Source of the DNA: an uncultured Erysipelotrichaceae bacterium | GTDB taxonomy: Bacteria; Bacillota_I; Bacilli_A; RF39; UBA660 | DNA length: 64,000 nucleotides | Direction of reading: 5' to 3' | Assembly (NCBI GenBank): GCA_902780585.1 | Contig: CACZGA010000001.1 | Coordinates: 10,819-74,818, forward strand | Shown: positions 28,044 to 64,000 of the stretch, in pieces | How positions within the stretch are numbered: position 1 is the stretch's first letter | Layout: every line of letters starts with the position of its first letter | Translations under genes and position numbers: made by a program | Notes under the pieces: model-generated | Database searches by the model: none | Told to the model about the DNA's origin: nothing | The model's input: only the letters and a program-made list of their open reading frames with translations

Positions 28044-31000
28044 TTAAGTTAATTCTCTTTCTCCTATTTTTCTACCAGTTAATTCTAATTTAACACTTTC
28101 CCAAACAGGTTCAGTACTTTTTCCCATACCACTAGATTTAACCATAAAATCAAATAAATCCTATTTTCCAGTTGCTGTTCTTAATACATTATTAGATAAT
28201 CTATCAGCAGATTTTATAGCAAACGGAGTCCAATCTTTACCTCTTCCAGCTATAGATTTAATAAAGTTAGCATCGTCTGTAGATATTTTTAAAGTATCAC
28301 TAGTTAAAGTTAATGCATTATTTTTGATAGCATTACCAAATCCTTTATTTCCAGTTTCTTTTACATACTATTTTACTTGTTTATCTAATGAACCTAACAT
28401 AAGATTTCCTATAAGTAACCATATTATTAAATCTACAAATAATTGTCTTAAATTAGCATTGTATAATCTTCTTAATTCAGGATCAACATTTTCATCATGT
28501 AATAGGTACCATGCTCCTTTTATTCCAGATTTAGTAGTTTGATCAGATTTTCCATTCATTGCTCTTGCCAATTCCCACATTGTAACAATTATTCCTTCTT
28601 GTGGACGTCTTTTCCAAGTTTGAACGGCTACTCCTGTATCATCTTCTGGTTTTTCAATTCTTTTTGGAATTAAATCTCCATCTTCATCTATAGTCCAACA
28701 ATATTTAATTTTTTCTCCATTTGGTCCTTCTTCTTCGTAATCTTCAAGCTTTCCTTCTTGTGTATAAGAACGAACTTGAGCATATTGATTCTTTTTAGCT
28801 GACCAATAAGTATTCATTTGCATAAACATTGCTCCTACAGTATATGAATGTAATAAAGATTTCTTTTCATGTGCATAATATCCATAAATTCTATCAGATA
28901 AAGCTTTAGCTGATTCAGATTGTTGATTAGTGTAAGCTTTTGGAAGAGCTTTAGGATTATTTATATCAAGTGTAAATAAAGTTCCATCTGAATATTTCGC
29001 TCCTTCTAATTCAAACTATCTAGCCATAGTAATATATAATGATTTTTGTTCATTATATTTTTTTAATTCTAAAGGAGAAACAGATGAATCTTTACCTTTA
29101 TATTTAGCAAATATATCGAATCTTTTATCCTTAGTCCAATCATAAACTAGTTTTCCATCAACTACTTTATAAGCTTCTAATGAACCATCTTTATGCATCT
29201 AAGCATAAAAAAGAGTCATTCTATTATAAAAATCAGGACGTGATGCAAATCTAAATCCTACTCCCCAGAAATGATAAAGTAATCCAGTATTATCTGTTTT
29301 AATTCTATCTATATAGCTATTAGCATCCATATCATTAAATCCATACTATTGATTTAATAATTCTGACATTGTAAAATCATTACCAAGATGTAATAAATCC
29401 TACATTACAATAGACCATCCTTTAAATAATCCTTCTCGTGTAAATGGATTATCATCATTATTATAATATTTTATAAATAGAGTAATGTCTTTCCATAATC
29501 CATCTATAAATTGATACCACTGTCTAGGGTTAAATGCTAAAGCTAATTTAGATGCTGTAGACATTGCTACTTTGGAAACATCAGTTACTATTTGAGATAA
29601 ACTATCATCTCTATCTTCTACAGGACGATTATGAATTCTTGTTTTAATATATGTAAGAATATATTCAATATCATTCTTAAAACTTTCATTCAGTATTCCT
29701 CCTTGCATATTTAAATGAAGTGTTAATGCTCTAAGTACTGGAAATATATTATTTAATTCATCAGCCATTTTATAAGCTGAAGTATGTTTTAATAAAAGAG
29801 TTTCAAGATTATGTTCAAAATATGCTTTTCCACCTAATCTTTCATCAGAAAGGATTTGTAACCTATATTTTTCATTTTCTTCTCCTTCTCCATCTGTAGC
29901 ATCAAAATTATTTATAGCTTCCCAAAATTCACCGTTCTTTAATTTTTCTTTATATTTATCATCGGTTACTAATCCAGTAGCATCAGCATCATATCTTCTT
30001 TTGAGTGTACTTAACATATTCTTAGGAGCTAACATAGCAAATCTAGATCTTATAAAATTAAGCCATCCGTGTCTTACGGCAACTTCAGAAGTTAAATCTC
30101 CTTTTGTTAACGGAACTCGTAAATATCGTTTTGGATTTTTCTTTATATCTTCTTCTATAGTATTAGGATTAAAATTTTTTATTCTATTATCATTAATTTT
30201 TAATAATGCAAACTTTAAGAAATCTCTTTCTTCATCAGTAAGTTCAACAGAATTATCCCAAGGATTTTTAAACAATAAATCTTCTCCACTTTCATCATAC
30301 ATATTTATATATAATGACTATACTTGATTTCCAGTTGTATATTGCTATAATTTTCCAAATCCTTTTTTCTCTTTAAGAGTTTCTACTTTTTTTCTTAATT
30401 CTTGATTAAATGCAATAACATTATCACGAACATTTTGATAAGCTTTTGTTACTTGATCTGTAAATTCATTTAATGTTTCACTCTATAATGTTCCTGGATT
30501 ATCCACCATTGTTCCAGCTATTCCTCTAAAGTTACTAAAATTTCCTCCAACTAATTGAAATTTAGCATGGTCTTCTATTTGCTGGAGTAAATTTACATCA
30601 GATAACTAAGCAATTGCATAAAGAATTTGTCTATGTAAAAGATATTCAGGATTAGAGTTTTCATCAGGAATACTAGATGTTTCCTAATTTAAATTCTTAT
30701 ATCCATAATCAAACCCGTCATTTCCTGTAAGTTTTTTATCCAATTCTATTAATTTCTATCTTAATAAAATAGGATTTGCTCCAAAATCATCTAAATCAGA
30801 AATACATCTTTTTATGTCTTGTTTAATTCCATATGCAATTTTACCTAATCCATTTTCTTCTGGACTAGCTTCTAAACATTCTTCAAAAGCAAATCTACAA
30901 GCATCAACTCTATTTACCATTCTGATTTTTCCGTTTTTTCCGTCAAAATTAAAATTATTTTTAATATTTCCTAATGAACATAATCTTTTAAAATTATATA

Positions 31001-33071
31001 ATAATTGTTCATTAGTTGCTGTTATACCCTTTTGTCCTCTAGGACTTATTACTTCAATGTTTCCAATACCTTTATTTTCAGTATTAAATAATCCTGGAAT
31101 TTCATTTAAAAGTAACATTACTTCCTATAATTCTATATTTCCACCTACTCCAGTCATAACTTGATTATTAGAATCAGAATTAACTACATCATCAGTTAAG
31201 AAAGTTCCTAATAAAGTAGTTCTATTTTTTCCAGAAAATTTAACTTTCTATGTAGGATTAAAATAATCGGAAATTCTAATTACATCAATTAATCCAGTAT
31301 ATTTATTTCTAAACATCAGTACTCCTAACTAATCAAATATAGAATCATATTTATCATCACTTATTAACTTCCATTTATTAGTGTTTGTATATTTTCCTAG
31401 TTTATCTTTAATCCAAAGAGGATTATCTTGACCAAAAGATGCTTTAGATGCAAGATTTAAAAAATCTTCTTCTGTCTCAGTATTTCCTAAAGATTTAAAA
31501 GTTTTTCTAATACTCGAAGTAGTATTTGGAACATAGTATTCTTTATATTCATATTTAGCTACTATTTTATTAAATATAATAGTTTCAGCTTCTTCTTTAG
31601 ATTTGTTACCACTAGCAACAAAATTATTTTTATTGTCTAATTTGAATTCCCAATTCTGAGTTATTTTATTCTTTTTAATACCTCCTGCTTCTTTTATCAT
31701 CTCAGCTATATCTTCTTTTGACATATTTTTTCCATTTTTCTTTATTTTAAATAAAGTTCTTGAATTTTCAGCAACTTTTGTTAATAAATCACCTGTTATA
31801 AAAGAATCTTTTTTAAAATTTCTTGGAAACACTTGTTCAAGATTATTTTCTATAGTGTTATATAAATTTCCACCTTTAGTTGCAGATGTATTAGATAATT
31901 CTTGAATTGGTTCATCCATTATAGATATTTCTGAAAATTGTACTTTTTTAGTATTATTATCAAATCCAAAGTTTTCAAATTTTAAAGGAATTATTCCTAA
32001 TCTCATTTCTTCATTAGGTTCAATTCCAATACTTTGTAATAATCTTCTATAAGCAGCCAACTAATATTTAAAGGTTAAAACTTTAGCAGGATCGTATTTA
32101 TCAAGTTCTTTAGAATAATTTGATTCAGTATAATCTTTAGGAGAACATTTAAAATCAAGTATTCCTATTCTACCATCTCTTGATACTACCATTAAGTCAA
32201 TTCTTCCTACTACTGGAAAAGCGTTAGTTCCATCCGATCCTTCTCCTATAACTTTCTTTTCAGAATAGATTACACAATCTTCTCCATAATCCTTTTTAAT
32301 ATTTTCATATATCTTAATAGCAGCTTTAATAGAAGATTTTTTTATTTCTGGAGTTATATATGGTCTAAATTTAGAATAATGAGACGTTTTTAATTTTTTT
32401 TCAAATTCTATATTTAACTAGTCTTCAGTAAGATTTTTAAATCTAATTCCTTCGTCAGTTTTAGATTTGAAGAAATCTGACATTATATTATGAATTAAAT
32501 CTCCACAAAGAGCTTGTTGTTTCCATACATCTGTCATTCTTTCTTCGATTTTATTTAAAGTATCTTCATCTGTAATCTTTTGGGGTATTCCGTTTATTTT
32601 AGGAAGTAGATCATCAACAAATGGTAATTGTGCCTATATTTTTGGATCATCATATTTACCATCTCTATATAACTGTTTCTAACCACCTGGGTTAGCTTCT
32701 GTTCCATCCCAGTAATTTTCAGCTACAAATACAGGAAATACAGGATTTCCATCAGGTCCTTTCATCTAATGAATAATATCAGTAATAGATCTATAATCTC
32801 CAGAAGCTTTAATAGGATCTAAATCTGACGGTTCTCCTTCTTCTGAAAGTTCAGTTATTTTATTTGATTTTTCTCCTTTCTCATATAAATCAGATACTTT
32901 CTCTAAAGCTTCATGAACTTGATTCTATTGTTCACTCCATTTAGAGTTTTCTGTTTTTTTAAAAGCAGCGTCTCCTAATTTATTTCTTAAATTATTATGG
33001 AATAATAAGTATTCATCTAACTCTAATTCTGAATTAAAAGTTAGTCCATTATATTTATATTTACAAGTCAT
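28044..33071 (-). CDS. late giant protein F (1675 aa, TAG read as sense) with an N-terminal RecB-family PD-(D/E)XK nuclease domain
   Basis: Track fragments 28368-28829, 29016-29198, 29400-30302, 30756-31118 and 31329-32060 share one frame, and all end at TAG. A triplet check of every gap found no in-frame TAA or TGA. The ATG at 33071 overlaps the stop of gene E (ATGA). The true stop is TAA 28044-28046. Confidence 0.85.
32040..32520 (-). other. PD-(D/E)XK nuclease motif set inside protein F
   Basis: CGDLIHNIM, GRIDLMVVSRDGRIGILDFKCS (D ... D-x-K) and TFKY[TAG]LAAYRRLL (QxxxY, with the Q encoded by TAG 32061-32063). Confidence 0.65.
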
Positions 33072-34132
33072 ATACAATTTTCAATTAATTCATTATTAGT
33101 TAATAACTCTTCCTTTACATTTGACATAATTCTGTGGATTGTTGCATCATCAATTGTTCCAGCAGAATCTATATCAAAATTAGAAGAATTTAATCTAGAA
33201 GCTAAGTTCAATAAAGAATTCTAAAATAAATTATCAATAGTTTTTACACTAACTTCTCCAAATATTATAGAATCTATATCTCTTTTTATATTATACATTA
33301 CATAATTCATTATATTTTTATCAGCTGAATCAAATAAACTTGGCTAATTAGTTAAAAATTTTGCTAATTCCTTTACAAAAATTTCTTCTTGAATATCAGA
33401 CATAGTTCTATTCGGATAAGATTTAGCCTAAAGTTCAAAATTTGGTAATTGCTAAACTTGTGATACTAATGAAAAATATAAATCTGGATTATTATATCTT
33501 ATAGATCCCAAAAATAAATGAAGTTGTTCATGTATAGGAGCATCTACTGTAGCTATGTCTGTATTTATATAGATATTTCCATTATATATAAATGCTTCAA
33601 GCTAGTGTACTGGTAAATTCTAAAATTCTGGATCTGAAGATAACTATTCGCTAGTTATCGGAATCATATTTATTCCATAATATTTCTATAATCTATCTAA
33701 GGCATCTTCGATTATTATAGAATTATTTGATTCGTCAAAATCTATATCTCTATTTACTTCTAAAATATCAGTGTACTCGGTAGGTCTATGTTTTATATCT
33801 ATTAAAACAGAATCTCCAATTTGAGTAAAATGTACTTCTAAATCTTTATATTCATTATTTATTTTTGAAGTAGCTTCCTCTATAGATTTAGAATTAGTTA
33901 GTTTTAATATATCCTAAGCTAGGACGTATTCACTATTTCCTTCTTTTCTAATTTTTAATTTATCTCTTAGATAAGGTTCTGAATTAGCTTCAGGAATCTC
34001 ATCTAATTCTGGCATTCTTCCGTTTTCTTCTTCAAAACCTCTAATAAAAGAATAAGAGGAAAATTCCGAAAGACCAGACATCTTTTTTAATGTCTGGCCT
34101 CTCTAAGAATTTTTTACTTCACAATAATTCAT
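33068..34132 (-). CDS. late protein E (354 aa) with an HExxH zincin-like motif
   Basis: Frame verified triplet by triplet. It has 10 in-frame TAGs and ATGA overlaps at both ends. The motif context is NGNIYINTDIATVDAPIHEQLHLFLGS. Confidence 0.8.
33518..33532 (-). other. HEQLH (HExxH) motif
   Basis: cat gaa caa ctt cat in the frame of protein E. Confidence 0.5.
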
Positions 34133-37100
34133 GGGCAATCTTTTACAGTATTATCATGTAATATAGCATCTAAATAATATTTAATTTTTTCTAAGTCATA
34201 TTTTCCATTTTTTCTTGGAAATATTTTAGAAGGAGTTATTTTTTCATCAGATGATTTTTCCTTAGCCATTTGTATTATCTAATTTACTGTATAGGACTTT
34301 TCTCCTTCATTTACTACTAAATCTTTTAATGGTTTATTAGTAATTTTATAATTTCCAACTTCCAATATATCTACTTCATTAGAATCATCAAAATTATTTT
34401 CTAATCCAATCATTACATATCCAGCATCGTTCATTTTCTTTATAAATGATTCTCCCTAAAAGTCATCTTCATTTCCTTCATCATTATCTGGATCTGGGTC
34501 AGGTGAATTGTCATCATTATAATCATTAGAATTATTATTTGATTCATTCTATTTTTTATATCCAAGATATGTTTTTTTATCTTCTGGATTAGTTACATAA
34601 ATCCAAGGAATTTTTAGATTAGGAGTTACTTCATAAGGTTTTAATAACGGAGCTATTGCTTTTATTATTTCATCTTGATTTTCTAAACTTACTGTATCAG
34701 ATTTTCCCCATTTTACTATAAAATCATTATAATCTTTTATAACATCTAATCTATTAGCTTTAATTAAATCTTCGAATAAAGAGGTTAAGGATAACTATCC
34801 TGGCTAATTATTATATGCTAATAAATTATAATAAAACATATATTCTATATATTTAGTAGGAAGTAATGATAAATCATACTTAGCTAAATCAAATTGAACT
34901 ACATCTGAAGGATTACTCATATCATTAGTTTTTATTTTAGCTAAATTTATAGAAGTATTATGGTCTGGATTATAATCATAACTTCTATATCCTAAATACT
35001 AAATAAATCTATTACTAGGATATTTTTTCTTTAATTCTGGGAATACTATATACTACATATATTCCTTAAATTTCTAATCGTCTTTCTCATTAATTCCTAA
35101 CTATATAGTCTATGGTCTACCTTCAGTATATACTAATTTTCCATTTACAATTTTAAATTTAGGAACATTTATAATTTTAATATTCTATTCTTGTAAAAAT
35201 TCCTAATGCATTTTTCTATATATAAATGGATTTATATTCCTTCTTATTTGAGATAAATGAGTAGTTTTTCTAGTATTCATCTAAGGAATTATAGAATCTT
35301 CTATTAATCTAGTAGCTCTGTATAACTATGAAGATTTAGAACCCATCCTTACTACAGCATTAGCTAACTTAAGGTAAGTTTGATAATTATCAACAGTATC
35401 AGCTACTTTTAGTATATTTGTAGTAGATTTTATTTTTCCATAAATACTTTTAGCAAGTTTATTATAATCTTTATCATATAAGAATGTATGTAAGTCTAAA
35501 TAATAAGATTCATTAGATTTGATTATTCCCTATTCTCTTAATTTATCATTATACTATTTGAGTTGGTCTAATTCTGTTAAAACTTCAGAATAATACTTTT
35601 CTAAACGAGTACTTCCAATTAAATCTAACCTATTAGAAATAATTTTTGAAAAATTAGTATAGAATGTTATCTAATCTTCTATTTTATTAGGTAATCCTTG
35701 ATTAAGTGCCATTAATGGACGTAACTAACTTTGTTCTTCAGCTATCTCCGCCAATCTAGATAATTGATTGATTATTTTATGTTGTTCTCCATCATAACCT
35801 TCTATTAAATCATTATCTATAACATTCTAATTACTTAACCAATTATATATACTTTTAATTTGTCCTAAATATCTTTTAGAAGAAAATATTAATCCTTGTA
35901 TAGCTTTTAACTAATCTTCAAATTTAGTATTCTAACTTTCATTAAATGATTTATCGAACTCTACTATTTTATCTAAACTTTGTTCTCCAAAATCTCTATA
36001 GTCTTTCCAAGCCTAGATTTCATCTAATACTTGTTGTTTCTATTGTTGTTTAGCTAATAAATCATTATAAGATTTTTCCTAGTCTTCTGTTCTATTTTCT
36101 ATTGAAGATAATTCATTTAAATAATTTTCAGCTCTTCTTGAGAATTTTCTATATTCTTTCTTGGTTTTAAGAGTAGCTATAATATTATTAATTAACTAAT
36201 CTTTATCTTGTTTTAAAATAGAACTTTCTGCATTAGGAGTTTGTAAGAATTTAAATATTGATAACATCTAATCTCTAAGATGCGGATTAGCAATTTTATT
36301 AGCTAAGTTACTTTTATTGATTTCCTCATTCTCTTGATAAATACCTAATTTAACAAATAAAGGTTTAAGAGTTTTTAATTGAGTATCAGTCAAATTTATA
36401 ACAGGAGGAACCTATAACTCTCTAATTATATCCAATATTCGAGTTCTGGCTTTCTATTCATTAAATACATTTCCATCAGATAATCTTGTTAACAACAATC
36501 CAGTATCAGATAATATTAAACGAGCTAGTTCTTCTACAGAATATCCTAAAATAACTCCAGCATTATATAAAGATAACATTTTAGGTCCACAATTTAACTA
36601 AGGTAATTTTGGATCTTTAGCATTATCAGTACTTAAAGAAAGTAATCCAGATTTACTAAGATATTCATCACGATACTAATTTACTTTTCTTAATGCTTTT
36701 AATACATCTTCATCTTTAATAGTATCTTCATTTCTAACTCGAACATTAGCCAACATATTTACTTCTCTTCCATTTATTATTACTCTAAAAAGTAAATCTT
36801 TCTAATCTTCAGCTGTTCCTTCTTCTAAAACTTGATAATTATATTGACTACTTATTTCAAAATTCTTTAACGAAGACGCTTCAATACCTACACCTTCCTT
36901 ACCTCCTAGTGTTAAAGTAAGCATTTTAATTTTAGAATATACAGAACCTCTATCGAATTTTTTAACGAATCCAGATAATTTCTAAAATTCAGGATGAGCT
37001 TTTTCATCATCCACAAGAGTTTTTATTTTATCCATCTAAGGATCAATAGGAGCTTGTGCCTAAATCCTATTAATAGGATCTTTAGAAATATCCTTAGCTT

Positions 37101-53900: not shown

Positions 53901-54088
53901 AATTTTTTTTCATCAAATTTTCCATCTGTCTAGAAAATAGGAAGATTTTGAATTGTCTGAGAATTTTTATATTTTTCCTTATCTTGTATCATAGTATTCG
54001 AAGAATTTAGTCCAACCAACTAAAAATCTTTAGGATTAAAAGTTGGATTGGACAATAATTCTAAGAAATAATCATGTTCTTTCATCAT
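44975..54088 (-). CDS. late giant protein C (3037 aa) with a central SF1 helicase/ATPase core and Gly-rich hydrophobic segments
   Basis: Track fragments from 47069-47641 up to 52169-52423 share one frame, and all end at TAG. All gaps checked triplet by triplet. ATGATG at 54088 overlaps the stop of gene B. The stop is TAA 44975-44977, 1 nt before the ATG of gene D. Confidence 0.85.
48518..49627 (-). other. SF1 (RecD/Pif1-like) helicase core inside protein C, about residues 1488-1857
   Basis: Walker A GDPGSGKS (49604-49627), Walker B LVFFDEVS, motif III AAGDFN[TAG]L, motif V SAGASQGQEG and motif VI YTALSRAKQG (48518-48541), all in the canonical order. Confidence 0.75.
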
Positions 54089-57000
54089 AATACTAATTCA
54101 TTCTTTTTATAAGTAGATATTTTCTACTTATCATATCCTTTTTGTTTCAATTCTAAATCTGTAGCATCAGTCATTGAAATTTTCTATCCGCTACTAATAG
54201 CTCCTGCTACTAAACTATTTTTTATTGGAACAAATACTGTTCCTTGATATAACTCTTCTTTACCTCCAAATATGGGTAATCCACTATCTAATGAATATTT
54301 CTTATCATTAAATTTATTTTGAATTATATTTTCATAAAATTCTCTAGTTTGTTCATCAGCAGGTTCTAATATATCTAAAATTACTTTTTTATCATTAAGT
54401 GCTTTTTCTGTAGTAGTTACCTAAAATGCTGCAAATCTATTCCACGACTACTTATTTAGATTCCCTTGATTATCATATTTAGGAGGTAACTATAATTTAG
54501 AACAAATTTCATTTACTTTCTACCAATTCTATGAAGAATCTTCTATTCCTTCTATTAATAATCGATCATCTAACTATTCTAATTTTTTTAACATTTCAAA
54601 ATCAGGAGTATTTTTATCTCCTATTTTAGTTGGTAAATCTACTCCTACTACTTCTCCATTGTTTAATATTATATAATTATAAGCAGTTGGATTTAATGTA
54701 GATCCTCCAAGTGTAGCTTTATTCCAATCTAAAACTCCTTTTAATGTAGAAGTTGATGCTTCCTACATAGTAATTCCTGCTCCCATATTTTCTCCACTAT
54801 GTTTCTAAAATTCAGAATATCTAGCTTTTACGTTTATTGCATAGTTACTTCCAGTATTTAATTCTATATTTGTATTATATCCTTTTCCTGTAATTAATGC
54901 AGATGCTGCATCTAATTTTAATCCTTCTGAATTTTCTTTTGAATTTCCATTAGTATCTTTAGCAGCTTTTCCAGTTAAAGGAGAGAAACTAACAGTCTAA
55001 GAATCATCTATTTGAGAAGATAAGAATGTAGGAATAAGATTTTTTGCTCCGCCATGTATATCTAACACTGCTTTATAATTTTCTGGCAACATTTGCGTAA
55101 TATAATTTATAGCTGCCTACTTCTAAGCTAATTGATTTTTAGTTTCAGTAGTTGTTTTATAATACCCATCTGGAGCTCCTTGTAACAATTTTATTCCTTG
55201 TTTAATCTAATTAGATTCCACTTCAGACATTCCATCAAGTTTAAGTTCACTACTACCTAATTTTCCAGCCATTGATTTAACCTGTTCAGCAATTTTCAAA
55301 AGTCCTACACCATTAGCAACAACATTTTGCATAATATAATCACCTTTATCAAATGCTAAATCAGGTCTATATTCTCTAAGTGTTAATAGTTGAGAATTAG
55401 TTAAAGGAATATGTTTAGAAGTATCAATTTTACTAACAGTTTCAATTTTTCCTGTTTCTTTATTCTATACAGCATAATTTCCAACAGAATCAACTGCTAT
55501 TTCATTTAATGCTCCATTAGCAGCAGCTACTTTATAAGCTTCATCATAAATTTCTTTACTTCTACTAACATTATTTAATTGCTACATAGCTCTCAAATAC
55601 ATACTAGCAATCTACTAAGAATTTAATTCTTTTCCAAATATTTCAGCTTCTTGTAAAACACCGCTTAATGTAGAGTAAATACTACTTACATCAACTTTAA
55701 CTCCTTTAAGATCTTTAAACATCTTAATTAAATCAAGTACATCTTTTGATGAAGTATCTTTACTAGATGATGTAGCTTTTGAGGATGTTCCTATAGAATC
55801 TTGACTAACTGTTCTAGCAGTTTCACTTACTCCAACAGCAGGAGTATATATAGTAAACGGAGCTAAGAACTGTCCTCCAACTTGATATTTTCTTCTTCTA
55901 GTCCCATCTGGATGTGGAGCTAATGGCTATATTTTTCTTTCTTTTTCAGGATAACGTCTACACATCTTTCTAAAGTGGTCTACAACATCTTTAGTAGATT
56001 TATATAGAAGTTTATCGTCCTTTTTATATGTTATTTTAGAACCAGATTTTACAAATAATAATGGAAATGAACTAGAATATTTTCTATTAATATCTCTGTA
56101 ATTTCTTAAATTTTCTAACTATATTCTTGTTTGTACTTTTTTAAGTTTTTCTTTAGCTTCTTTAACTCTTGGGTCACTTTCATTCCACAATCCATTTTCT
56201 CCACGAAGAGCATATAATTCATCAGTTGCTTTTTTTAATTCTGGATCATTTTCTAACTAAGTTTGATAAGTAAGTAAATCAATCTATTTATTATAAGCAT
56301 TATCTTCTTCCATCTACTATCTCTTACGAGTTTCGATTTCCTTAAGATAATTATCAATAGATGACCACTATGCGGAATGTTTCTAAGCCAATAAAGTATG
56401 TTTTTTTTCATTAGCATCATTTAATGAAGCTAAATTAGTATTGGCTACTTCTGTTGCTCTTTGGGTATTAGCCCATTGATGTTGATTAGATTCATCAGAA
56501 GTTCTACGAATTTCTTGATTATCAGCTAAGTCACCTTGTGCTCTGAGTTCATCTCCAACTCTTCTGGCTTCTTGCATATAAGCCATCTATCTATCAGCAT
56601 CAGAAGTAAATGGTTGAGCAGCTTTTGTCTATCCAGCAGCTGCTCTTCTGTAATATGCTTGTTTAGTAGCCTCATCACCAACAACTTGTCTATGTGTATA
56701 ATAAGGCTAAATTAAAGTAGGTCTAATTCCCTTTAAAGCTTCATCATATACTCTAGCATTATTAATAAGATTTCCAGCAAGTCTTCCTGTAGATAATAAT
56801 CCAGGAATCATTCCTCTTAGTCTTCCTAATAAATCATTTCCTTGTGGAGTTTCTTTTTTATCTCCTGTTGGACCACTTCCTATTTCTGTACTTCCTCCAG
56901 TTTGTTGAGGCTAAGGATTTAGTTTTTGTAGAGTTTCTGAAGGAGGATTATTAGGAGATTCCTATAACGGAAGTCTTTTTAATTTATAATATCCATCTGA

Positions 57001-57555
57001 ATCATCTAAATATGTATCCCATCCTCTTTTATTGAGTTCTTGTTTCCAATTTCTAAATTCTTGTGAATTTTCATCCCAATCCCCTTTTCTACCAAGAAGT
57101 CTTCTCCAATCAGTTACACTACTATATAATCCATCTGCAACATATTTCTAACTTGGATTATCTCCAGATAATCTTTTTCCTGGAGCAGTAAAGACATTAT
57201 TATTATAGGCATTAGCAATACCTAGATTATTATAATTAAAATAATCCTCTTCGTTTATCTAAGTACCCTAATTATTGGAATTTCCTAAATAATCATTTTG
57301 GTACTTTTTAACACTTTCATTAGAATAGGCTTTTTTCTTCCAAGCCTCATTTGCTCCTCCAGCTGCATTATAAATTTGTGAATGAGAATGTTGCATATCA
57401 TTCAACCAATATCCATAATCATTTTTTTCACCATATTTAGATAACATATCTAATATATGTTGTGACTATTTACTATGAACATATTTATACCAATCTGAAG
57501 TTGTACGACCTATTCCAGTATTTCCCCCATATTGAAATCTAGGAATAATTTTCAT
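54085..57555 (-). CDS. late large protein B (1156 aa), function unknown
   Basis: Every row from 57555 to 54085 was translated: 35 in-frame TAGs and no TAA or TGA. ATGA overlaps at both ends. Includes track fragment 56383-56586. Confidence 0.85.
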
Positions 57556-60332
57556 TTCTTTATAAATTCTTTATATTGTTGTATTCTTTGTTTATCTAAT
57601 CTTCCACCTTGTTTAAGCCAACCTTTTCGTTTAAAATCTTGAAGAATTTTTCCCAATTCAGTATTTCCTATTTTTACAGGAGAATTAGGTTTAATATTTC
57701 TTCTATTATTATTTATTATATCCCTTATTTTAGTCTATAATTCTTTCTATTGAGATTTTAAATAATTTCCTTCAATATTTCCCTTATAAATTAGATTAAA
57801 AGTTCCATCAGACTATTCAACAATTTGTAACTAGTGTCCATCAATGTTAGCACTTCCACTCTTTAATTTATTTTTAGAAAATTCTCCTCTAGATAATTTT
57901 TCTTCTCTATTTTTTACATATTCGTTATATTTTTGAATTCTTTCTTTAGACTACTTACTTATTTCTGAATTTTTTTCATTATTTCCAGAAGTTTCATTAG
58001 CTTTAGGAGTTTCAGACTATTGTTCTGTTGTTGGTTTTACTGAATTATTTCCTAAATATTTATCATATCTTCTAATATCACGATTACTTCCATTGAAGAA
58101 TTTTTTTAACCATGTATTATTATGTTCTGACAAATATTGCTCAAATTCTTCATCTGACTTTAATGCTGAAGAATTTCTTGTAGTAGTTGTTGGAGTTCCA
58201 AATATTTCAGAATTTCCTTTTCCTCTGTATCTATTTAAATTTTCTCTACTCCAAGTTTTAGTACTAGTAGATTTAGACTATATTTTATATCCTTCAGGAA
58301 TTTCTATTTCTAAATCTTTAGCTTTAGCTTCTAAATCCTCTGCTTTAGTTTTACTTAAAATTTTCTATTTTTCTTTATCTATAGGAATTTCTATAGTTTC
58401 TACTTTGCCATCTTCTCCAGTTTTCTACACTTTTAAAGTAGGAGCTGTTTCTGTAGAAGAAGTTGTTTTTGCTTTAGTTCTAGTAATTCCTGATTTATTT
58501 AATAAAGAATTAGAAGTTTCGATTCCTCTAGCTTTCATAGCAGATCTTTCAACTCTATTTCCTCTATTCAATTGATGATGTCCTAATCCTCCAATAAAGA
58601 AATATGCTAAATCCTAATAATCCTTAAGAGATAAATCTTCTCCTTTTTTAATTTTTTCTACAGTATCAAGAGCTCCTGGAGCATTAGCTGCCATAGCATA
58701 AGTAGATCCAGCTCTTCCAGCAAGTCTTATATATTTTTCTATTTTTGGAAGATATCCAGCTAGCTTAGAAGCAGCCCAACCTCCTTTTATCCATCCACCT
58801 GCTATTGGAATAGTACTCAATAATCCTAGACCGTGATCTAAGGCAGCCCAACCGGTATCTCCCCAAGTCCATCCTTCAGGATCAGATGCCCTATTATAAT
58901 CACGAATTCCAGCAGCTATTTGAGATAGTCCAGCAGAGCTAAATCCTTCTGGATCAACAGCTGCTCCTAAATCAAATAATAATGCAGCTACTTCTCTCTA
59001 TTCAGCAGGAGTAAATCCTCCTTCTGTAGAGTTTAAATAATTTTGTTGCTATTTATTTTTTAAAACATCAGGATTATTCTAATCTAAAATATCCTAAAAA
59101 TTTACTCCATTATTCTATTGTCCTTTAGCATAAGGTTTAACAATTTGATTTGTTAAAGAATCCCAATAAATTCCATTTAATTCTCTGATTTTCTTAAATC
59201 TATTAGGATTACTTCCAAATCTAGGACCGAATGTAGCTAGTTCTTCTTTAGAAAGATTTTCTAAAGCATTATTTCTTTGTGCAAGTTTAAATGTTCCTAC
59301 TAATTGTGATAATTCATCGCCATTCCATGAATCTTTAGCAGCTAACTAATTTAAATAATCTAAATTACTATTTTCAGGAGAAAGTGGACTTCCAGTTAAT
59401 CCTTTACCATACCATTTTAATCCTCCAATAAGATTAGCATTATATGCTTTTCTTGCTGCTTCTGCTTTAGCATTAGCAGCCTATATTTTAGCATCTTTCT
59501 AAGCTTGTAATCCTCTATAGTAATTACCATAAGTTATTGGATTTCCTTGTTCATCAGTAGTATAAACTTCACCAGTTCTATTGTTAAACCAATCCTTATA
59601 GTTTATTCCAAGTTTATTTAAGGCAGGTGTATCATCATCAAGTTCTGGACTTCTCAATGCTCTTACAGCTTCTCCTAATCTAGATTTAAAGTCATCAGCA
59701 TCCTTAAAAGGACTATCTTTCCAATTATATTCTTCTGCATTAAAATCTCTGTCTATACCTTCTAAATACTTAGCAAGAGCCTCTTTTCTTTTATCTGTTC
59801 CAACAGCTCCCGTTTTTTCATTACGAACATCATCTAATGTATTCCAACGATTCATATCAAAGGTTTTTCCATCAAATGCTTGTCCGCCAAATTCTTTATC
59901 TGATATATTTTTATAAAGAGTGCTTAAAAATGAATTGCTATCGAACGTAGGTAATTTAGCAATTCTTTCTTCTTCCTCCTTCTTTTTCTTCTCTTCAATA
60001 GATTTTTTAGTTGGTAATGACTCAGCTAATCTTCCAATAAAACTAGCTGCATCTTGCCAACCTCTTCTTGTATTTTTATCATATGTATTAATATCAAATG
60101 GATCTCCACCAAATGTAGTATAATACATAGATTCTCCAGTATCTGGATTTGTATATTTTCTAGTCCCTAAAATTCCTCTATTTAGAGCTAATTCTATAAC
60201 TGCATCAAAAGCACCTCTACGAGCAGCTGACCAGGGTTGGGTACTAGAATAAGCTTTATAATCTCCTATAGCTTTTAACAAATCCTATTTACTAACCTAT
60301 TCATCACCAAAATTAATGTATTCTTCTTCCAT
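57552..60332 (-). CDS. late large protein A (926 aa) with a Gly-rich hydrophobic segment (GLGLLSTIPIAGGWIKGGWAASKLAG); possible ejection or membrane-active protein
   Basis: ATG 60332 to TGA 57552-57554. Joins track fragments 59499-60281 and 58614-58820. Fully translated by hand with 20 in-frame TAGs. Confidence 0.85.
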
Positions 60333-60386: not shown

Positions 60387-60692
60387 TTACTTGTTTTCCC
60401 AACGAACTAATCTTCCACCCTTACGATAAACAGGTGCTTGACCTTCGGGTGCTGCAGGAGCAGGTTCACCACCTCCTTGAGCAAGCTCAACAAGTGCTTG
60501 ACATACTTGTAAAGCTAATTGAGCATCTTGTGTTTGAACTGCCTGAGCAGCAGCCATTACAATCTATTCTAAAGGATCTCCACCTTGTTCAGGTGCTTGT
60601 TCAGGAGCTGGAGCAGCTTCAGGAGCAGGTGCTCCAGCTGGAATTTCTCCACCTTCTTGTAATTTTAAAAATTTTCTGTCAGTAATTTTCAT
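60387..60692 (-). CDS. 101-aa Ala/Pro/Gln/Glu-rich low-complexity protein, locally GC-rich
   Basis: MKITDRKFLKLQEGGEIPAGAPAPEAAPAPEQAPEQGGDPLE[TAG]IVMAAAQAVQTQDAQLALQVCQALVELAQGGGEPAPAAPEGQAPVYRKGGRLVRWENK. Frame checked. Has its own upstream spacer and downstream terminator. Confidence 0.7.
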
Positions 60693-60738: not shown

Positions 60739-60789
60739 CGTATCTTTCTAACTAATTTATATGTTTCATTTAAAAAGTCAAAATCTTAA

Positions 60790-61062
60790 TTATTCTTCCT
60801 TATTAATAGTCTTAGACCATAGTCCAGAAGGAATTACATCTACTCCATATAATCCAAGACATCCAATAAATACTACATTAGCAAATTCTGGAATATCTTT
60901 TTCTTGAATGTATGCAGCAATTAATATTCCAAAACAAACAAATGCTCCTAATAAAGCAATTATTCTTTTAGAACTAATTCCACCACTATTTCTTAAAAAT
61001 ATAGTACGCCAATCAAATTTTTGTAACTACTTTAATTCTGAATTACGATATCTTTTATCCAT
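60790..61062 (-). CDS. 90-aa two-TM membrane protein; holin-like candidate
   Basis: TM segments IIALLGAFVCFGILIAAYI and FANVVFIGCLGLYGV. One TAG at codon 12. Its start overlaps the transglycosylase stop by 8 nt. Confidence 0.6.
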
Positions 61063-61789
61063 AATCTTTTAATGCTCTTTCTATACTATATCCACCAAGA
61101 GAAAAATTCTTTTTTCCATCGAGAACCATTCTCATAGATTTTGGATACCACCAACCTAATGCAGCTATTTGTGCTTTATTATATCCATTTTGAAATAATT
61201 TTTCTGCTTCAGTAGTACTAAGAATATGTCTTAAATATTTTGTAGCAGCTCTTACTTGTTCTTTCGGATCATTTAAAAATGATTCTTTATCATAATTACT
61301 ATAAAGTTTTCTTGTACTGTCTATAAACTAGAAATATCCAGATGCAGTAGAAGAACTACTCTTAGCTTTTTGTTTAAAATTAGATTCTCTTTTTGCTTGT
61401 AATAGTATAAGACTTTTCATTTCTGGATCTTTTAAATCTTCAAATCCTTTTTCATTAGATACTTCATCTAGTAATTTATTAAAATTTTCTGGACCCTATA
61501 TTGTAGTAAAATTATTAGATTTAACTTCTTTATTAATTTCTCCGTTGTCCTCCTTAGGAGCTTTTGTCATTTCCATATTCTGTTGTTCTTTAGGTTTTTC
61601 TATTTGAGAATTAAGTACTAAATCTTGAGGCCATAAAAGTCCATTTCCGTTCTAATCCTATATAAATTTAAATCCATCTGGAACTTTAGTTCTACCAAAT
61701 ACAGGATCTTCCATATAATCAAGTTCTTTCTAAGTATAGGAAGGTTTATAGATAGTATTTTCAAATAATTTACTATAATCAACTGCCAT
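61055..61789 (-). CDS. lytic transglycosylase (SLT domain) protein, 244 aa
   Basis: Complete hand translation with 5 in-frame TAGs. Contains LQAKRESNF (catalytic E-S), TASGYF[TAG]FIDST (GLMQ-type motif) and NGYNKAQIAALGWWYP. Confidence 0.8.
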
Positions 61790-61791
61790 AA

Positions 61792-62409
61792 TTAATCCTC
61801 CTTTTTCTTACTTTCTGGACCATCTACATATTCAGCAGGACGTTCATCCTATCCTTTAAGCACTTTAAACATATATTTTCCAAGTGCTTTATAATCTTTA
61901 TCTTCTTTAGAAGCATTAGCTTTAAGTGCTTTCTTTATTAATATAAGAGTTTCACGCCTTGAAACAATACGTTCTCCACCCTCCAAATGCATTTGTGTAC
62001 TTCCATCAGGAGATAATACTTTCATTACATAATCGTGAGATTCATCATCATCTAAATCAGCTTTATCTCCAGGTTTTATTCCAGAATCTGCATTAACTTC
62101 TAATACATATGAAGCAATTCCTTCTATTTTATCATCTTCTGGATTTCCTCTTTTAACATCAAGAACTTTAAATTCATCGTCCATAAATACCATATCAAGA
62201 GGAAATGGAACATTGTGCATATGAAAGAAAGTTTCAACAGGATTAGATTCATTAATTACAAACAACATTCCTTCGTCTTTTGGAAGAGATTTAAAATTCT
62301 AAAGACCTTGCTTTTTCTATTCTTCGGATTTAGCAATAAATATATCATATTCCTATCCACCAAGAGTTATAACTCCTATATTTTTAGATTTTCTACCTTC
62401 TATTTCCAT
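61792..62409 (-). CDS. DUF192-domain protein, 205 aa
   Basis: AKSEE[TAG]KKQGL[TAG]NFKSLPKDEGMLFVINESNPVETFFHMHNVPFPLDMVFMDDEFKVLDV...ASYVLEVNADSGIKPGD fits the DUF192 pattern (GLM..L....GMLF ... M.N...PLD..F.D ... YVLE...G). Extends track ORF 61849-62268 in both directions through TAG. Confidence 0.7.
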
Positions 62410-62410
62410 A

Positions 62411-63703
62411 TTACATTTTCTCCTATACTTCTTCTATAAGTCCTGTTCTATCATCTGTATTAGTTAATAATTCTTTTACAAGACGTTTTCCTACTTTAAT
62501 AGCAATTTCATCTTTTTCAGAATTACTTGTTTCTTCGGAATTAAACTTTTTAAGATTATTTTCTATAAAGTCAGTTAAATCTTTAGTGAAGATTACTTCA
62601 TTCTTTTCTATTTCAGCTTGTTGTTCTCCATTATTATCAACTACAGGAATACCTTTAGCAGTAAAATCTTCTCCTGCACCTTCCATATTATTTTTACGAG
62701 CATGAAGAGCACCTTCTGGGATGACATTCATTTGTCCTCCTTGCTTAAAAGCTTGTGGAATTTTATCAAATCCTTTATAATAATTTTTATAATTTTTAGT
62801 AAACCAATCAGCTGCATCATTTGATGGAAAATAAATATAATCTTTATGTTTTATTGCTGATTTCCAGGCTTTTTCTGGATTTCCAGATAAATCAACAAGT
62901 TGTCCATCAATTTCCTATATTTCTGGATATACTATTGTTCCGGTTTCATCTTCAGACCAAGCTAATTTAAAATTGTCCCAAGAACCGTCTGGATAAGTTA
63001 TATATTTTCTATTTGGATCTTGTAATCGTTTAGCCCAATTAGTATTGGAATTTTTAACTAAATCAAAGAGATTATCTTTTCCAATATTTTCTTTTGTTAA
63101 TGGACCAATTGTTCCATCACCTTTTTTATACAAAGGAGTTCCATCATTTAAATATCCTATAGGCTCTTCTCCACTCTCTTTAGAATCTAGTTTTGGTTTT
63201 CCACCTTTCTAAAAACTGTCAATTAACTCTCCACCCTATTCCTTCTAAATGTTGAACCATTTCTAGTCCAAGGTATTTTTATTTTGTAAATTTTTAGTAT
63301 ATGTCCAGCAATCTTTTTCTTTATTGAATGTACGCACATAACCACCAAGTTTAAGTTCTTGTACGAGAGGAATTACATCATTATCCCATACTCTAATATC
63401 TTTAGCTACAGTTTCATTATCTTCACCTTTATTAAGATATTCATATTCATCTGTCTCTTCATTATAACCAATAGAAGGTAATTTAAATTCTGCTTCATTT
63501 ATAGGTTGAATTAATCCTTCCCATAAAGCATGTTCATAATCCTTAGGTTGTCCATATAATTTCCAAGCAACCTCTAGTCTATAATTATCTCCAATCTGCA
63601 TTTCTTTAGGAAGAGACTTTTTAAATTGTTCAAAAGCTGAACCAACAGGTTTATTAATTTCTTTTGATTTATTAATTATATTTTTTAATCGTGAGCGTTG
63701 CAT
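62411..63703 (-). CDS. late protein G (430 aa), function unknown
   Basis: Track fragments 63263-63703, 62915-63133 and 62423-62731 share one frame and are joined by TAG. Gaps checked. Stop is TAA 62411-62413. Confidence 0.8.
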
Positions 63704-64000
63704 AATATCATTTGTTTATTATCAATTAATGCAGCAGCCGATAATAATCTCATTCCCATATTATGGTTGGTTGCATTATTAAATATCTTCATTCCTTGTT
63801 TACCTCTATATAAAGGCTTCCATCCTCCCATTATTTGTTGAGCATATCTCTAATTATTTATAGAAGACATATACTAACTTCTAATTTTCTATAATTCATT
63901 TTGGTCAGCCATACTTAATATCTTATTCCAAGCTTGATTTGCAAAATCTATATTATCCTAAGCATCCCCGTATGCTCCTCTTGAAAATAAACCATAAGTT
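63685..64000 (-). CDS. 3' end of an upstream late gene (5' end outside the window)
   Basis: Open frame with 4 in-frame TAGs that ends at TAA 63685-63687 and overlaps the start of gene G by 19 nt. Confidence 0.6.

What the first reader, a model, noticed from the sequence alone, without database searches (positions are those of the whole stretch)
28044..64000. Module-restricted TAG reassignment: every interruption of the 36-kb minus-strand block is TAG
Under the standard code the minus strand yields only short ORFs, with none of 60 aa or more between 32061 and 38424. Yet successive fragments hold one frame for kilobases. I checked every fragment boundary in the track (28368, 29016, 29400, 30756, 31329, 38425, 39646, 39868, 40783, 42355, 43981, 47069, 47900, 48677, 49454, 50399, 51242, 52169, 58614, 59499, 61849, 62423, 62915, 63263). 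Each one is CTA on the plus strand, which is TAG. Reading the gaps triplet by triplet found no in-frame TAA or TGA before the gene ends listed in the features. Hand counts of in-frame TAG: 20 in gene A (926 codons), 35 in B (1156), about 96 in D (3614), 10 in E (354) and 5 in the SLT gene (244). In contrast, about 27.5 kb of plus-strand genes carry internal TAG in only one gene. This matches what is reported for recoded crAss-like and Lak phages, whose late genes cannot be translated until TAG suppression is available.
Basis: partly seen in the sequence, partly recalled or inferred. Interest (0 to 1): 0.8.

Follow-up and report, generated by a model that had tools for sequence, protein, structure and literature searches.

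The report
TAG-to-glutamine recoded crAss-like phage late genes
The 36-kb block is the late (virion and giant-protein) gene module of a ~174-kb crAss-like phage in which the stop codon TAG is read as glutamine while the early replication genes avoid TAG; this is a clean, heavily recoded example of an already described phage strategy, not a new one.

Summary
If TAG is read as sense, the minus strand 28,044-64,000 becomes 11 back-to-back genes plus one cut by the window end. These carry 273 in-frame TAG and no in-frame TAA or TGA in about 11,850 codons. ORF coverage rises from 36% to 99% under code 15 and does not change under code 4.

TAG means glutamine. It supplies 47% of Gln codons in the block and aligns best with Gln in TAG-recoded relatives and in a standard-code relative (MT835470.1).

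Flanking DNA of the same 174,238-bp contig carries crAss capsid, ring and muzzle genes, so this is a crAss-like phage. The recoded block runs at least 26 kb past the window. The 27-kb plus-strand replication module has no in-frame TAG except in one nuclease-like gene.

This pattern is already published (Yutin 2021; Borges 2021/22; Peters 2022), so this is a new member of a known kind.

The gap is mechanistic. I found no tRNA(CUA) and no release-factor-sized unassigned gene in the roughly 115 kb of this genome I could reach. A distant recoded relative does carry a tRNA(CUA).

One untested lead is a highly conserved phage YqeY-like gene (a tRNA-Gln-binding domain family) at the end of the early module.

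The parts
28044..33071 (-). Gene F, 1,675 aa, 21 in-frame TAG, stop TAA. Last gene of the late block. Function unknown.
   Evidence: Ortholog in IMG/VR relative L006 is also TAG-recoded (34 TAG). Homolog of 1,529 aa in the standard-code relative MT835470.1. No Pfam or PHROG hit for TAG-free fragments.
33068..34132 (-). Gene E, 354 aa, 10 in-frame TAG (62% of its Gln codons), stop TGA.
   Evidence: No PHROG hit. Homolog in MT835470.1.
34129..44973 (-). Gene D, 3,614 aa, 96 in-frame TAG. Giant protein with a DxDxD motif (SDYDIDK at aa 2347), so it is the candidate virion RNA polymerase of the crAss 'transcription block'. This assignment is inferred from motif and synteny only.
   Evidence: The motif region aligns at 50% identity with MT835470.1. 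No PDB sequence match. Yutin 2021 (PMC7886860) describes such blocks.
44975..54088 (-). Gene C, 3,037 aa, 73 in-frame TAG. Giant protein of unknown function.
   Evidence: Aligns over about 2,000 aa with a 2,970-aa standard-code ORF of MT835470.1. Called as one 3,037-aa product by the source.
54085..57555 (-). Gene B, 1,156 aa, 35 in-frame TAG.
   Evidence: Orthologs in L019, L020 and L021 are also recoded.
57552..60332 (-). Gene A, 926 aa, 20 in-frame TAG.
60387..60692 (-). Small Ala/Pro-rich gene, 101 aa, 1 TAG.
   Evidence: Homolog in MT835470.1.
60790..61062 (-). Small gene, 90 aa, 1 TAG, with two hydrophobic segments read by eye. Possible holin next to the SLT gene (inferred).
61055..61789 (-). 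SLT-domain lytic transglycosylase, 244 aa, 5 TAG.
   Evidence: PHROG transglycosylase hit. Pfam SLT precomputed. Counts.
61792..62454 (-). DUF192-domain protein, 5 TAG. 220 aa from the first ATG; the source aa starting at 62409.
62411..63703 (-). 430-aa late protein, 6 TAG. The exact TAG-to-Gln translation is on record in the public protein collection.
   Evidence: P0001, 100% identity, more than 4,600 homologs..
63685..64000 (-). 3' end of a 417-aa late gene that runs off the window. 4 TAG in the visible part, 7 in the whole gene.
27812..27997 (.). Convergent junction of the early (+) and late (-) modules. Terminator-like hairpins at 27812-27857 (+) and 27997-27964 (-). GC skew changes sign here.
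   Evidence: 5 terminator-like sites against 0.4 expected..
300..27394 (+). Early replication and nucleotide-metabolism module written without in-frame TAG. It includes primase, exonucleases, NrdD, NrdG-like radical SAM, ligase, a sigma-70-family protein, DNA polymerase, Thy1-like and YqeY-like genes.
2965..3519 (+). The only recoded gene inside the early module: 184 aa, 3 in-frame TAG. By eye it looks like an HTH plus PD-(D/E)xK-type nuclease.
   Evidence: The source calls it as a 184-aa product. No Pfam hit.
25012..25467 (+). YqeY-like protein (GatB C-terminal / tRNA-Gln-binding domain family), 151 aa, standard code, 2.6 kb from the recoded block. Candidate accessory of the code switch; this is speculative.
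   Evidence: Pfam PF09424, E 6.8e-16. PDB YqeY 8xjg and 1ng6. The listed top 120 of 1,221 homologs are 83-100% identical, and among those with long contigs the longest are phage-sized. Present in TAG-recoded IMG/VR relatives.

Best explanation
The window comes from a 174,238-bp contig of an uncultivated crAss-like phage (Crassvirales). In size and gene layout it resembles the large 'Zeta'-type crAss-like phages.

The minus-strand block from 28,044 to the window end, and at least 26 kb beyond it, is the late module. It holds capsid, ring, muzzle, a lytic transglycosylase with a small membrane protein, and the giant 'transcription block' proteins. This module is written in genetic code 15: UAG is decoded as glutamine and supplies 47% of Gln codons. 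Only UAA and UGA end its genes.

The plus-strand replication and nucleotide-metabolism module contains no in-frame UAG, so the unmodified host machinery can translate it.

The likely working is inferred, not shown. Early in infection every late mRNA would terminate at its first UAG, which lies at codon 7-49 in eight of the nine large genes. Once an efficient Gln-accepting UAG decoder is present, most likely a phage tRNA with a CUA anticodon that outcompetes or is helped against release factor 1, the late genes become translatable. Recoding would then act as a translational timer and safety lock for virion, lysis and nuclease genes.

Decoding must be nearly complete. A gene with 96 UAG gives 38% full-length product at 99% read-through per codon and under 1% at 95%.
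For: Shown:
- No TAA or TGA against 271 TAG in frame in 11,656 codons, while off-frames carry 100 TAA+TGA per 1,000 codons.
- ORF coverage of 36% under code 11, 99% under code 15 and 36% under code 4.
- TAG equals Gln. In three recoded relatives, 56 of 318 aligned non-TAG residues are Q, and 26 of 72 in conserved context, with a log-likelihood lead of at least 54 over the next amino acid. Against the standard-code relative MT835470.1, Q is the commonest partner at 213 aligned sites, with a lead of 30.6 overall and 19.1 under the strict filter.
- The source's TAG-to-Gln translations are on record, and the 430-aa protein has more than 4,600 homologs.
- Identical DNA in independent assemblies.
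- Crass_capsid, CrAss_Ring_1 and crAss_MUZ genes, all TAG-containing, lie in the right flank.
- 38 early genes have no internal TAG.
- About 25 IMG/VR relatives show the same code-15 signature around the capsid gene.
- A distant TAG-recoded relative carries a tRNA(CUA) just upstream of a late gene.

From the literature: late-gene-restricted TAG/TGA reassignment in crAss-like phages (PMC7886860; bioRxiv 10.1101/2021.08.26.457843). The abstract of PMC9523058 reports proteomic confirmation of code 15 in crAss-like phages.
Against: - No tRNA with a CUA anticodon, and no tRNA-Gln, was found in contig positions 1 to about 115,500. That stretch includes a tRNA block (16 by default ARAGORN, plus two tRNA-Ser at a relaxed threshold).
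- None was found at permissive Rfam thresholds in the window.
- None was found in the syntenic tRNA blocks of two relatives, or in 20 kb further upstream in the closest IMG/VR relative.
- No release factor or aminoacyl-tRNA synthetase gene is in the window: all ORFs of 300 aa or more have other assignments.
- The timing of expression is inferred from gene content and strand only.
- Recoding is not perfectly module-bound. Three plus-strand genes carry TAG.
Confidence: 0.9

Rival explanations
1. UAG is read through without a dedicated phage suppressor tRNA. A phage factor disables or sequesters release factor 1, or alters Gln-tRNA supply (the YqeY-like protein is one candidate). A host tRNA-Gln(CUG) would then decode UAG by G-U pairing at the first codon position.
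For: No tRNA(CUA) in about two thirds of this genome or in the syntenic tRNA blocks of relatives. MT835492.1, a TAG-recoded relative of 121.6 kb, also has none among its 5 tRNAs. Borges et al. detected suppressors in only 40% of TAG-recoded genomes. A very strongly conserved YqeY-family gene sits at the end of the early module.
Against: About 58 kb of the contig was not read. A distant recoded relative does carry a tRNA(CUA). Genes with 73-96 UAG need about 99% decoding per codon, which near-cognate reading is not known to reach (established knowledge). In the one case studied, the YqeY domain enhanced tRNA-Gln binding only in cis (PMC1865053). L006 is recoded but shows no YqeY homolog in the 21.6 kb held, which spans the DNA polymerase to the start of the late block.
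Confidence: 0.12
2. TAG encodes an amino acid other than glutamine, for example lysine, glutamate, or pyrrolysine as ARAGORN labels CUA tRNAs.
For: K and E are the next most frequent residues opposite TAG. Many aligned positions are variable.
Against: Q is the commonest partner in both tests, at 17-36% of sites against a Gln content of about 3-5%. Its log-likelihood lead over the next amino acid is 19-128 units. TAG interchanges mostly with CAA between close relatives. No pyl genes were seen in the window.
Confidence: 0.03
3. The host itself uses code 15, so the whole phage simply follows the host code and there is no temporal switch.
For: None directly. The host was not identified here.
Against: 38 early genes (7,667 codons) contain no in-frame TAG, against 23 per 1,000 codons in late genes. 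Two or three early genes appear to end at TAG. In phages of truly recoded hosts about 90% of genes carry the recoded codon (Borges). A close standard-code relative exists.
Confidence: 0.03
4. The block is decayed non-coding DNA, pseudogenes or an assembly artefact, and the TAG pattern is accidental.
For: Under the standard code no ORF of 60 aa or more exists over 6.3 kb. Most products have no Pfam or PHROG match.
Against: No TAA or TGA in about 11,700 codons, where about 1,170 would be expected from the off-frames. The same DNA occurs in independent assemblies. Protein-level conservation and synteny hold with many relatives, including standard-code ORFs of matching size.
Confidence: 0.01

Closest known systems
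Large 'Zeta'-group crAss-like phages with TAG or TGA reassignment in late genes (Yutin et al. 2021, PMC7886860; Zeta crAss paper PMC12386605)
   Same: Genome of 145-192 kb (here 174,238 bp). A forward block with replication, nucleotide-metabolism genes and a tRNA cluster. DnaG-type primase, DnaB, SNF2-type helicase, AAA ATPase, RNR, Thy1 and a weak (sub-threshold) dUTPase match. A block of giant proteins, one with DxDxD. Stop-codon reassignment confined mostly to late genes. Code varies between close branches: TAG here, TGA in L051 and L056, standard in MT835470.1.
   Different: Membership was not tested by TerL, portal or MCP phylogeny. The capsid protein matches only two unannotated GenBank phage records (54-59% identity), so the lineage is not among the named Zeta genomes in that collection. 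No suppressor tRNA was found in the part read. The module carries a sigma-70-family gene and a YqeY-like gene; the term 'sigma' does not occur in PMC12386605.
GenBank MT835492.1 ('UNVERIFIED Bacteriophage sp. scaffold_35', human faeces, 121.6 kb)
   Same: Same early(+)/late(-) layout. The late block is heavily TAG-recoded, for example 128 TAG in a 3,401-codon ORF. Low GC (29%). MCP 54% identical. No tRNA(CUA) detected.
   Different: Shorter, possibly incomplete record. Only 5 tRNAs. Unannotated, so its recoding is not recorded in the entry.
GenBank MT835470.1 ('UNVERIFIED Bacteriophage sp. scaffold_2', 117.4 kb)
   Same: Closest capsid protein in GenBank phages (58.6%). Syntenic late block with giant ORFs of 2,970, 2,281, 1,594, 1,556 and 1,529 aa.
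   Different: Standard code: no TAG in its large late ORFs, with 1-3 in a few minus-strand ORFs. GC is 36.4% against 27.5% here. No tRNA genes. It serves as the natural non-recoded control.
Code-15 crAss-like and Lak phages of Borges et al. 2021/22, and the proteomic validation by Peters et al. 2022 (PMC9523058)
   Same: TAG to Gln. Structural and lysis genes recoded while replication genes use the standard code. Low GC. Mobile endonuclease genes inside early regions are also recoded, as reported for an Agate-clade intron endonuclease.
   Different: [quoted passage not shown] Neither was found here in the part read. There is no proteomic evidence for this phage.

Membership tests
Genetic code 15 (TAG to Gln) recoded phage | Long reading frames interrupted only by TAG, never by TAA or TGA | tested here: met
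   271 TAG and no TAA or TGA in 11,656 codons of nine genes. Off-frames carry 100 TAA+TGA per 1,000 codons.
Genetic code 15 (TAG to Gln) recoded phage | Coding density rises under table 15 but not under table 4 | tested here: met
   Minus-strand coverage of 0.36 (code 11), 0.99 (code 15) and 0.36 (code 4).
Genetic code 15 (TAG to Gln) recoded phage | In-frame TAG aligns with glutamine in homologs | tested here: met
   Q ranks first in recoded relatives and in the standard-code relative MT835470.1.
Genetic code 15 (TAG to Gln) recoded phage | Phage-encoded suppressor tRNA with CUA anticodon | tested here: inconclusive
   None in contig positions 1 to about 115,500 by ARAGORN at default and relaxed settings; Rfam was run on about 80% of that stretch. 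About 58 kb was unread. It is present in the distant relative L159.
Genetic code 15 (TAG to Gln) recoded phage | Release factor 2 or other code-change gene (found in only some members) | tested here: not met
   No RF or aaRS among window proteins; every ORF of 300 aa or more is otherwise assigned. The rest of the genome was not fully read.
Genetic code 15 (TAG to Gln) recoded phage | Peptides spanning TAG positions with Gln | not testable with these tools
   Needs metaproteomics of the source sample.
Crassvirales (crAss-like phages) | crAss-type major capsid protein | tested here: met
   473-aa product with Pfam Crass_capsid PF23898 in the right flank of the same phage.
Crassvirales (crAss-like phages) | crAss tail-barrel proteins (ring, muzzle) in conserved order downstream of the capsid gene | tested here: met
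   CrAss_Ring_1 PF24228, and crAss_MUZ PF25731 / crAss_MUZ_C directly upstream of the window genes. The same holds in relatives.
Crassvirales (crAss-like phages) | Block of giant proteins including an RNA polymerase with a DxDxD motif | tested here: inconclusive
   Giant ORFs of 3,037 and 3,614 aa. One plausible DxDxD (SDYDIDK, aa 2347 of D), conserved in MT835470.1. No family or PDB sequence match. No structure was predicted.
Crassvirales (crAss-like phages) | Placement by TerL, portal or MCP phylogeny; family (Zeta) assignment | not tested
   TerL and portal lie in the unread part of the contig. No tree was built.
Theta (HDV-like) ribozymes flanking phage tRNAs | Motif P1-J1/2-P2-P3-L3-P3'-P1'-P1.1-L4-J4/2-P2' as in the supplementary data of Kienbeck 2024 | tested here: not met
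   A regex plus base-pairing scan of this phage's loci and its relatives gave 0 hits. The scan is my own approximation of their descriptor.

The most novel reading that the evidence does not exclude
This abundant lineage of about 175-kb recoded crAss-like phages may have no canonical suppressor tRNA. It may instead rely on a phage-encoded free-standing YqeY-like protein (the tRNA-Gln-binding domain family of GatB and Deinococcus GlnRS), perhaps with an unrecognised RNA from the conserved intergenic elements of the tRNA block. That protein would channel glutamine to UAG, for example by helping GlnRS or GatCAB act on a CUA-anticodon or near-cognate tRNA. It would be a protein component of a viral code switch that has not been described.
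Probability: 0.08. Interest if true: 0.75.

Novelty: new member of a known kind. Interest (0 to 1): 0.3.

Why it matters
For annotation, standard-code gene calling turns at least 62 kb of this phage into fragments. It hides the capsid, tail and giant virion proteins of a lineage that is clearly abundant: more than 4,600 homologs of one late protein, and dozens of 170-190-kb IMG/VR contigs.

For biology, it is a very strong example of the 'early genes standard, late genes recoded' design. Nearly half of all Gln codons are UAG and one gene holds 96. The capsid gene is almost free of UAG, and mobile nuclease genes inside the early region are recoded too.

A recoded genome (MT835492.1) and a standard-code relative (MT835470.1) in GenBank offer a natural contrast for studying how recoding evolves with falling GC content.

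It does not change the current picture of phage recoding, unless the missing suppressor and the YqeY lead turn out to be real.

Tried and rejected
1. Family searches (Pfam, PHROGs) on ten TAG-free fragments of F, D and C and on E, B, A and the 430-aa protein. Nothing matched except SLT.
2. Megablast and tblastn of gene C fragments against GenBank phages, and an IMG/VR scan. No match.
3. PDB sequence search with the DxDxD region of D. No match.
4. Hunt for the suppressor tRNA. I used ARAGORN at default, intron and relaxed settings, and Rfam at gathering and permissive thresholds. I walked the contig to position 1 on the left and about 26 kb to the right, then 20 kb further in the closest IMG/VR relative. 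No CUA anticodon turned up and no YTCTAR loop motif occurs in the tRNA-block gaps. Relaxed ARAGORN gave many obvious false positives, which I disregarded. The exception is two tRNA-Ser that are called by default in relative L029.
5. Weak tRNA-like hit at L022 3023-3099 (28.4 bits). Its anticodon is GAU and it lacks a D arm, so it is not a suppressor.
6. Theta-ribozyme idea for the conserved elements right after tRNA-Met and tRNA-Leu. The motif scan was negative and the folds are unremarkable, with z-scores of -1.5 and -0.5.
7. Nucleotide context after in-frame TAG. It follows the general first-base usage, so there is no sign of a special read-through context.
8. 'Backup stop' after TAG-terminated early genes. 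The next stop comes 1-8 codons later. With a stop density of about 0.1 per codon this is what chance gives, so I do not claim it as a feature.
9. Strict linkage of YqeY with recoding. Not supported: L006 is recoded but has no YqeY homolog in the 21.6 kb held.
10. Exact look-up of a standard-code fragment product. Not on record, because the source called genes under code 15.

Full report
**1. The observation**

The window is AT-rich (27.5% GC). Under the standard code the minus strand right of 28 kb yields only short ORFs. The ORF listing finds none of 60 aa or more in any frame across 32,061-38,424.

When only TAA and TGA count as stops, the minus strand becomes a gap-free series of genes:
- F: 28,044-33,071, 1,675 aa
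- E: 354 aa
- D: 3,614 aa
- C: 3,037 aa
- B: 1,156 aa
- A: 926 aa
- two small genes of 101 and 90 aa
- an SLT transglycosylase
- a DUF192 protein
- a 430-aa protein
- the 3' end of a 417-aa gene that leaves the window

The nine large genes hold 271 in-frame TAG and no TAA or TGA in 11,656 codons. Their own off-frames contain 66 TAA and 34 TGA per 1,000 codons. Coverage by open frames of 100 or more codons goes from 0.36 (code 11) to 0.99 (code 15) and stays at 0.36 under code 4. This cannot be chance or decay.

**2. Which amino acid**

TAG makes up 47% of TAG+CAA+CAG in the block. I ran two alignment tests.

The first used five orthologous proteins in three relatives that are themselves recoded (L019, L020, L021). 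TAG sites pair mostly with TAG or CAA. Of 318 sites paired with a non-TAG residue, 56 are Q. In conserved context the figure is 26 of 72. An empirical likelihood puts Q ahead of the next residue by 128 and 54 log units respectively.

The second test is independent. GenBank MT835470.1 is a standard-code relative with the same gene order and no TAG in its large late ORFs. Across 213 aligned TAG sites, Q is again the commonest partner. Its lead is 30.6 log units overall and 19.1 under a flank filter. TAG therefore means glutamine, which is code 15.

**3. What the DNA is**

Exact-protein look-ups place the window at about 25,554-89,553 of a 174,238-bp ENA contig. A second assembly carries identical DNA (11,293 of 11,293 bases). 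The source had already translated these genes with TAG as Gln, since the products are on record.

Going upstream in the direction of the late genes, the right flank carries a 1,806-aa crAss_MUZ muzzle protein (29 TAG), a 1,277-aa protein, CrAss_Ring_1, several small proteins, a Crass_capsid MCP and more. Every gene there carries TAG except one 70-aa gene with no Gln codons. In the closest IMG/VR relative, a further 20 kb upstream is still densely packed with recoded genes.

The plus-strand 27 kb of the window is a replication and nucleotide-metabolism module. It has primase, two exonucleases, NrdD with an NrdG-like partner, ATP-dependent ligase, a sigma-70-family protein, DNA polymerase and Thy1-like genes. 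The left flank adds an SNF2-type helicase, DnaB, an AAA ATPase, RNase H and a block of 16 tRNA genes.

The capsid-ring-muzzle set makes this a crAss-like phage. The size, the tRNA block, the rich replication module and the giant-protein block match the description of the large Zeta-type crAss-like phages. I did not test family membership by phylogeny.

Gene D carries one plausible DxDxD motif, conserved in MT835470.1. It is the candidate virion RNA polymerase, but this rests on motif and synteny only. There is no family or PDB match.

**4. How restricted the recoding is**

Inside the window, 38 plus-strand genes (7,667 codons) have no internal TAG. One gene, 2965-3519, has three. By eye it looks like an HTH plus PD-(D/E)xK nuclease, though Pfam finds nothing.

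Left of the window, two more plus-strand genes are recoded. One is an HNH endonuclease inserted in the tRNA block (6 TAG). The other is a 378-aa protein (9 TAG).

'Module-restricted' is therefore a good first description. More exactly: late genes plus isolated nuclease or mobile genes are recoded, and replication genes are not. Borges et al. describe the same thing, including a recoded endonuclease inside an early region.

Within the late module, usage is uneven. The capsid gene has 1 TAG among 12 Gln codons, against 47% overall. That fits UAG decoding being somewhat costly for the most abundant protein.

Two or three early genes seem to end at TAG (6525-8021, 24128-24454, perhaps 10356-10595). 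The nearby next stop is what chance gives.

**5. Mechanism**

What is shown is the code itself and its distribution over genes. What is inferred is that late mRNAs terminate at their first UAG (codon 7-49 in eight of nine large genes) until an efficient UAG-to-Gln decoder is present. Recoding would then time and lock late translation.

The arithmetic is demanding. With 96 UAG in one gene, 99% decoding per codon gives 38% full-length product, and 95% gives under 1%.

The expected agent is a phage tRNA(CUA). I could not find one. ARAGORN and Rfam find none in:
- the window
- the left 25 kb, including the tRNA block, which holds Val, Asp, Met, Cys, Pro, Thr, Tyr, Phe, Trp, Met, Leu-UAG, Gly, Gly, Asn, His and Lys, plus two Ser at relaxed threshold, but no Gln
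- the right 26 kb, searched with ARAGORN throughout and with Rfam only for the first 10 kb
- the syntenic tRNA blocks of two relatives
- the regions around the capsid or YqeY genes of dozens of relatives
- the whole of the recoded GenBank relative MT835492.1

About 58 kb of the contig was out of reach because the look-ups were exhausted. A more distant TAG-recoded relative does carry a tRNA(CUA) 760 nt upstream of a late gene, so the classical mechanism exists in the wider group. Borges et al. found suppressors in only 40% of TAG-recoded genomes. I keep the suppressor-tRNA model as most likely and give the suppressor-free alternative about 0.12.

**6. A lead**

Window 25,012-25,467 lies at the end of the early module and encodes a 151-aa YqeY-family protein (Pfam E 6.8e-16; PDB YqeY 8xjg and 1ng6).

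The YqeY fold is the C-terminal tRNA-binding part of GatB. Fused to Deinococcus GlnRS, it raises affinity for tRNA-Gln, but in that study it worked only in cis.

The phage protein is unusually conserved. The listed top 120 of 1,221 homologs are 83-100% identical, and among those with long contigs the longest are phage-sized. For comparison, the DNA polymerase is 60-83% identical in the closer IMG/VR relatives. It is present in several TAG-recoded IMG/VR relatives.

It is not detected in the 21.6 kb held for L006, which is also recoded. No paper in the searched library links YqeY with phage recoding. This is a hypothesis to test, not a finding.

**7. Comparison with what is known, and verdict**

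Late-gene-restricted TAG-to-Gln reassignment in crAss-like phages, including 145-192-kb genomes with tRNA blocks and giant 'transcription block' genes interrupted by in-frame stops, was described by Yutin et al. 2021. It was generalised by Borges et al.. The abstract of Peters et al. 2022 reports proteomic confirmation for two crAss-like phages.

The lineage here is poorly represented in GenBank. Only two unannotated records match the capsid protein, one recoded and one not. It is common in metagenomes. Its relatives are mostly TAG-recoded, with a few TGA-recoded.

The recoded genomes have 27-29% GC and the standard-code relative has 36%. This agrees with the low-GC route to recoding proposed by Borges et al.

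The finding is real, correctly interpreted, and a new member of a known kind. Its interest lies in the extreme density of recoding, the unexplained absence of a suppressor in two thirds of the genome, and the YqeY lead.

Noticed in passing
window 25012-25467 (+): YqeY-family protein (tRNA-Gln-binding domain family of GatB and Deinococcus GlnRS) at the end of the early module. It is extremely conserved in this phage lineage (83-100% identity among the top 120 homologs). No paper in the searched library links YqeY to phage recoding.
   Followed up: partly
window 18321-19037 (+): Complete sigma-70-family protein (regions 2, 3 and 4) encoded in the early module of a crAss-like phage. It is conserved in relatives (77% in L004, 51% in L006). 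It could direct middle or late transcription. The term 'sigma' does not occur in PMC12386605, the one crAss paper I searched for it.
   Followed up: partly
window 2965-3519 (+): The only TAG-containing gene in the 27-kb early module (3 TAG, 184 aa). By eye it is an HTH plus PD-(D/E)xK-like nuclease, with no Pfam hit. It recalls the recoded endonuclease in an early region reported by Borges et al.
   Followed up: partly
L024 9400-10136 (contig positions, left of the window): An HNH endonuclease gene with 6 in-frame TAG is inserted in the tRNA block. It lies between a D-arm-less tRNA-Ile(GAU)-like remnant (28.4 bits) and an orphan tRNA 3' half. Relatives have an intact Val-Ile-Asp-Met run at this position. 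It looks like a homing-endonuclease insertion that damaged a tRNA gene.
   Followed up: partly
L105 8489-9910 (same phage, right of the window): The major capsid gene has only 1 TAG among 12 Gln codons, against 47% TAG in the window's late genes. The most abundant virion protein largely avoids the recoded codon.
   Followed up: no
L024 11963-12092 and 12614-12722: Intergenic elements directly after tRNA-Met and tRNA-Leu are 95-97% identical in relatives in which the adjacent 162-aa protein is only 60-70% identical. They are not theta ribozymes by my motif scan, have no Rfam hit, and fold unremarkably. Function unknown.
   Followed up: partly
L024 10212-10311: A 100-nt element between tRNA-Met and tRNA-Cys, closed by a stem of about 12 bp. 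Its fold z-score is -3.3 (0 of 200 shuffles fold as well). Unidentified.
   Followed up: no
window 27812-27857 (+) and 27997-27964 (-): Strong convergent terminator-like hairpins where the early and late modules meet. GC skew flips from +0.25 to -0.25 at the same point.
   Followed up: no
window 6525-8021, 24128-24454, 10356-10595 (+): Early genes that appear to end at TAG, with the next TAA or TGA 1-8 codons later. They would be slightly extended once UAG is decoded. The distance to the next stop is not different from chance.
   Followed up: yes
window genes A, B, 60387-60692 and 62411-63703; L024 6714-7850: A short motif (K/F/L)-(Q/Y/E)-G-G recurs near the N- or C-termini of several late proteins, for example PRFQYGGN, WLKQGGRL, KLQEGGE, AFKQGGQM and YKQGGQL. 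It could be a shared targeting or processing signal. Not tested statistically.
   Followed up: no
MT835470.1 and MT835492.1 (L111-L116): Two unannotated 'UNVERIFIED Bacteriophage sp.' GenBank records are relatives of this phage. One uses the standard code at 36% GC. The other has a TAG-recoded late block at 29% GC. Nothing in the entries records the recoding.
   Followed up: yes
L051 and L056 (IMG/VR relatives): Capsid-region loci of two relatives with higher GC (35-39%) gain coverage under code 4 (TGA), not code 15. The lineage therefore contains TAG-recoded, TGA-recoded and standard-code members.
   Followed up: partly
L024 about 4730-4830: A run of N flanked by the same roughly 60-nt sequence on both sides. 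This is a scaffolding gap or duplication artefact in the source contig.
   Followed up: no
window 60790-61062 (-): A 90-aa protein with two hydrophobic segments, directly upstream of and overlapping the SLT gene. It may be a holin, which would make this a small lysis cassette inside the recoded block.
   Followed up: no
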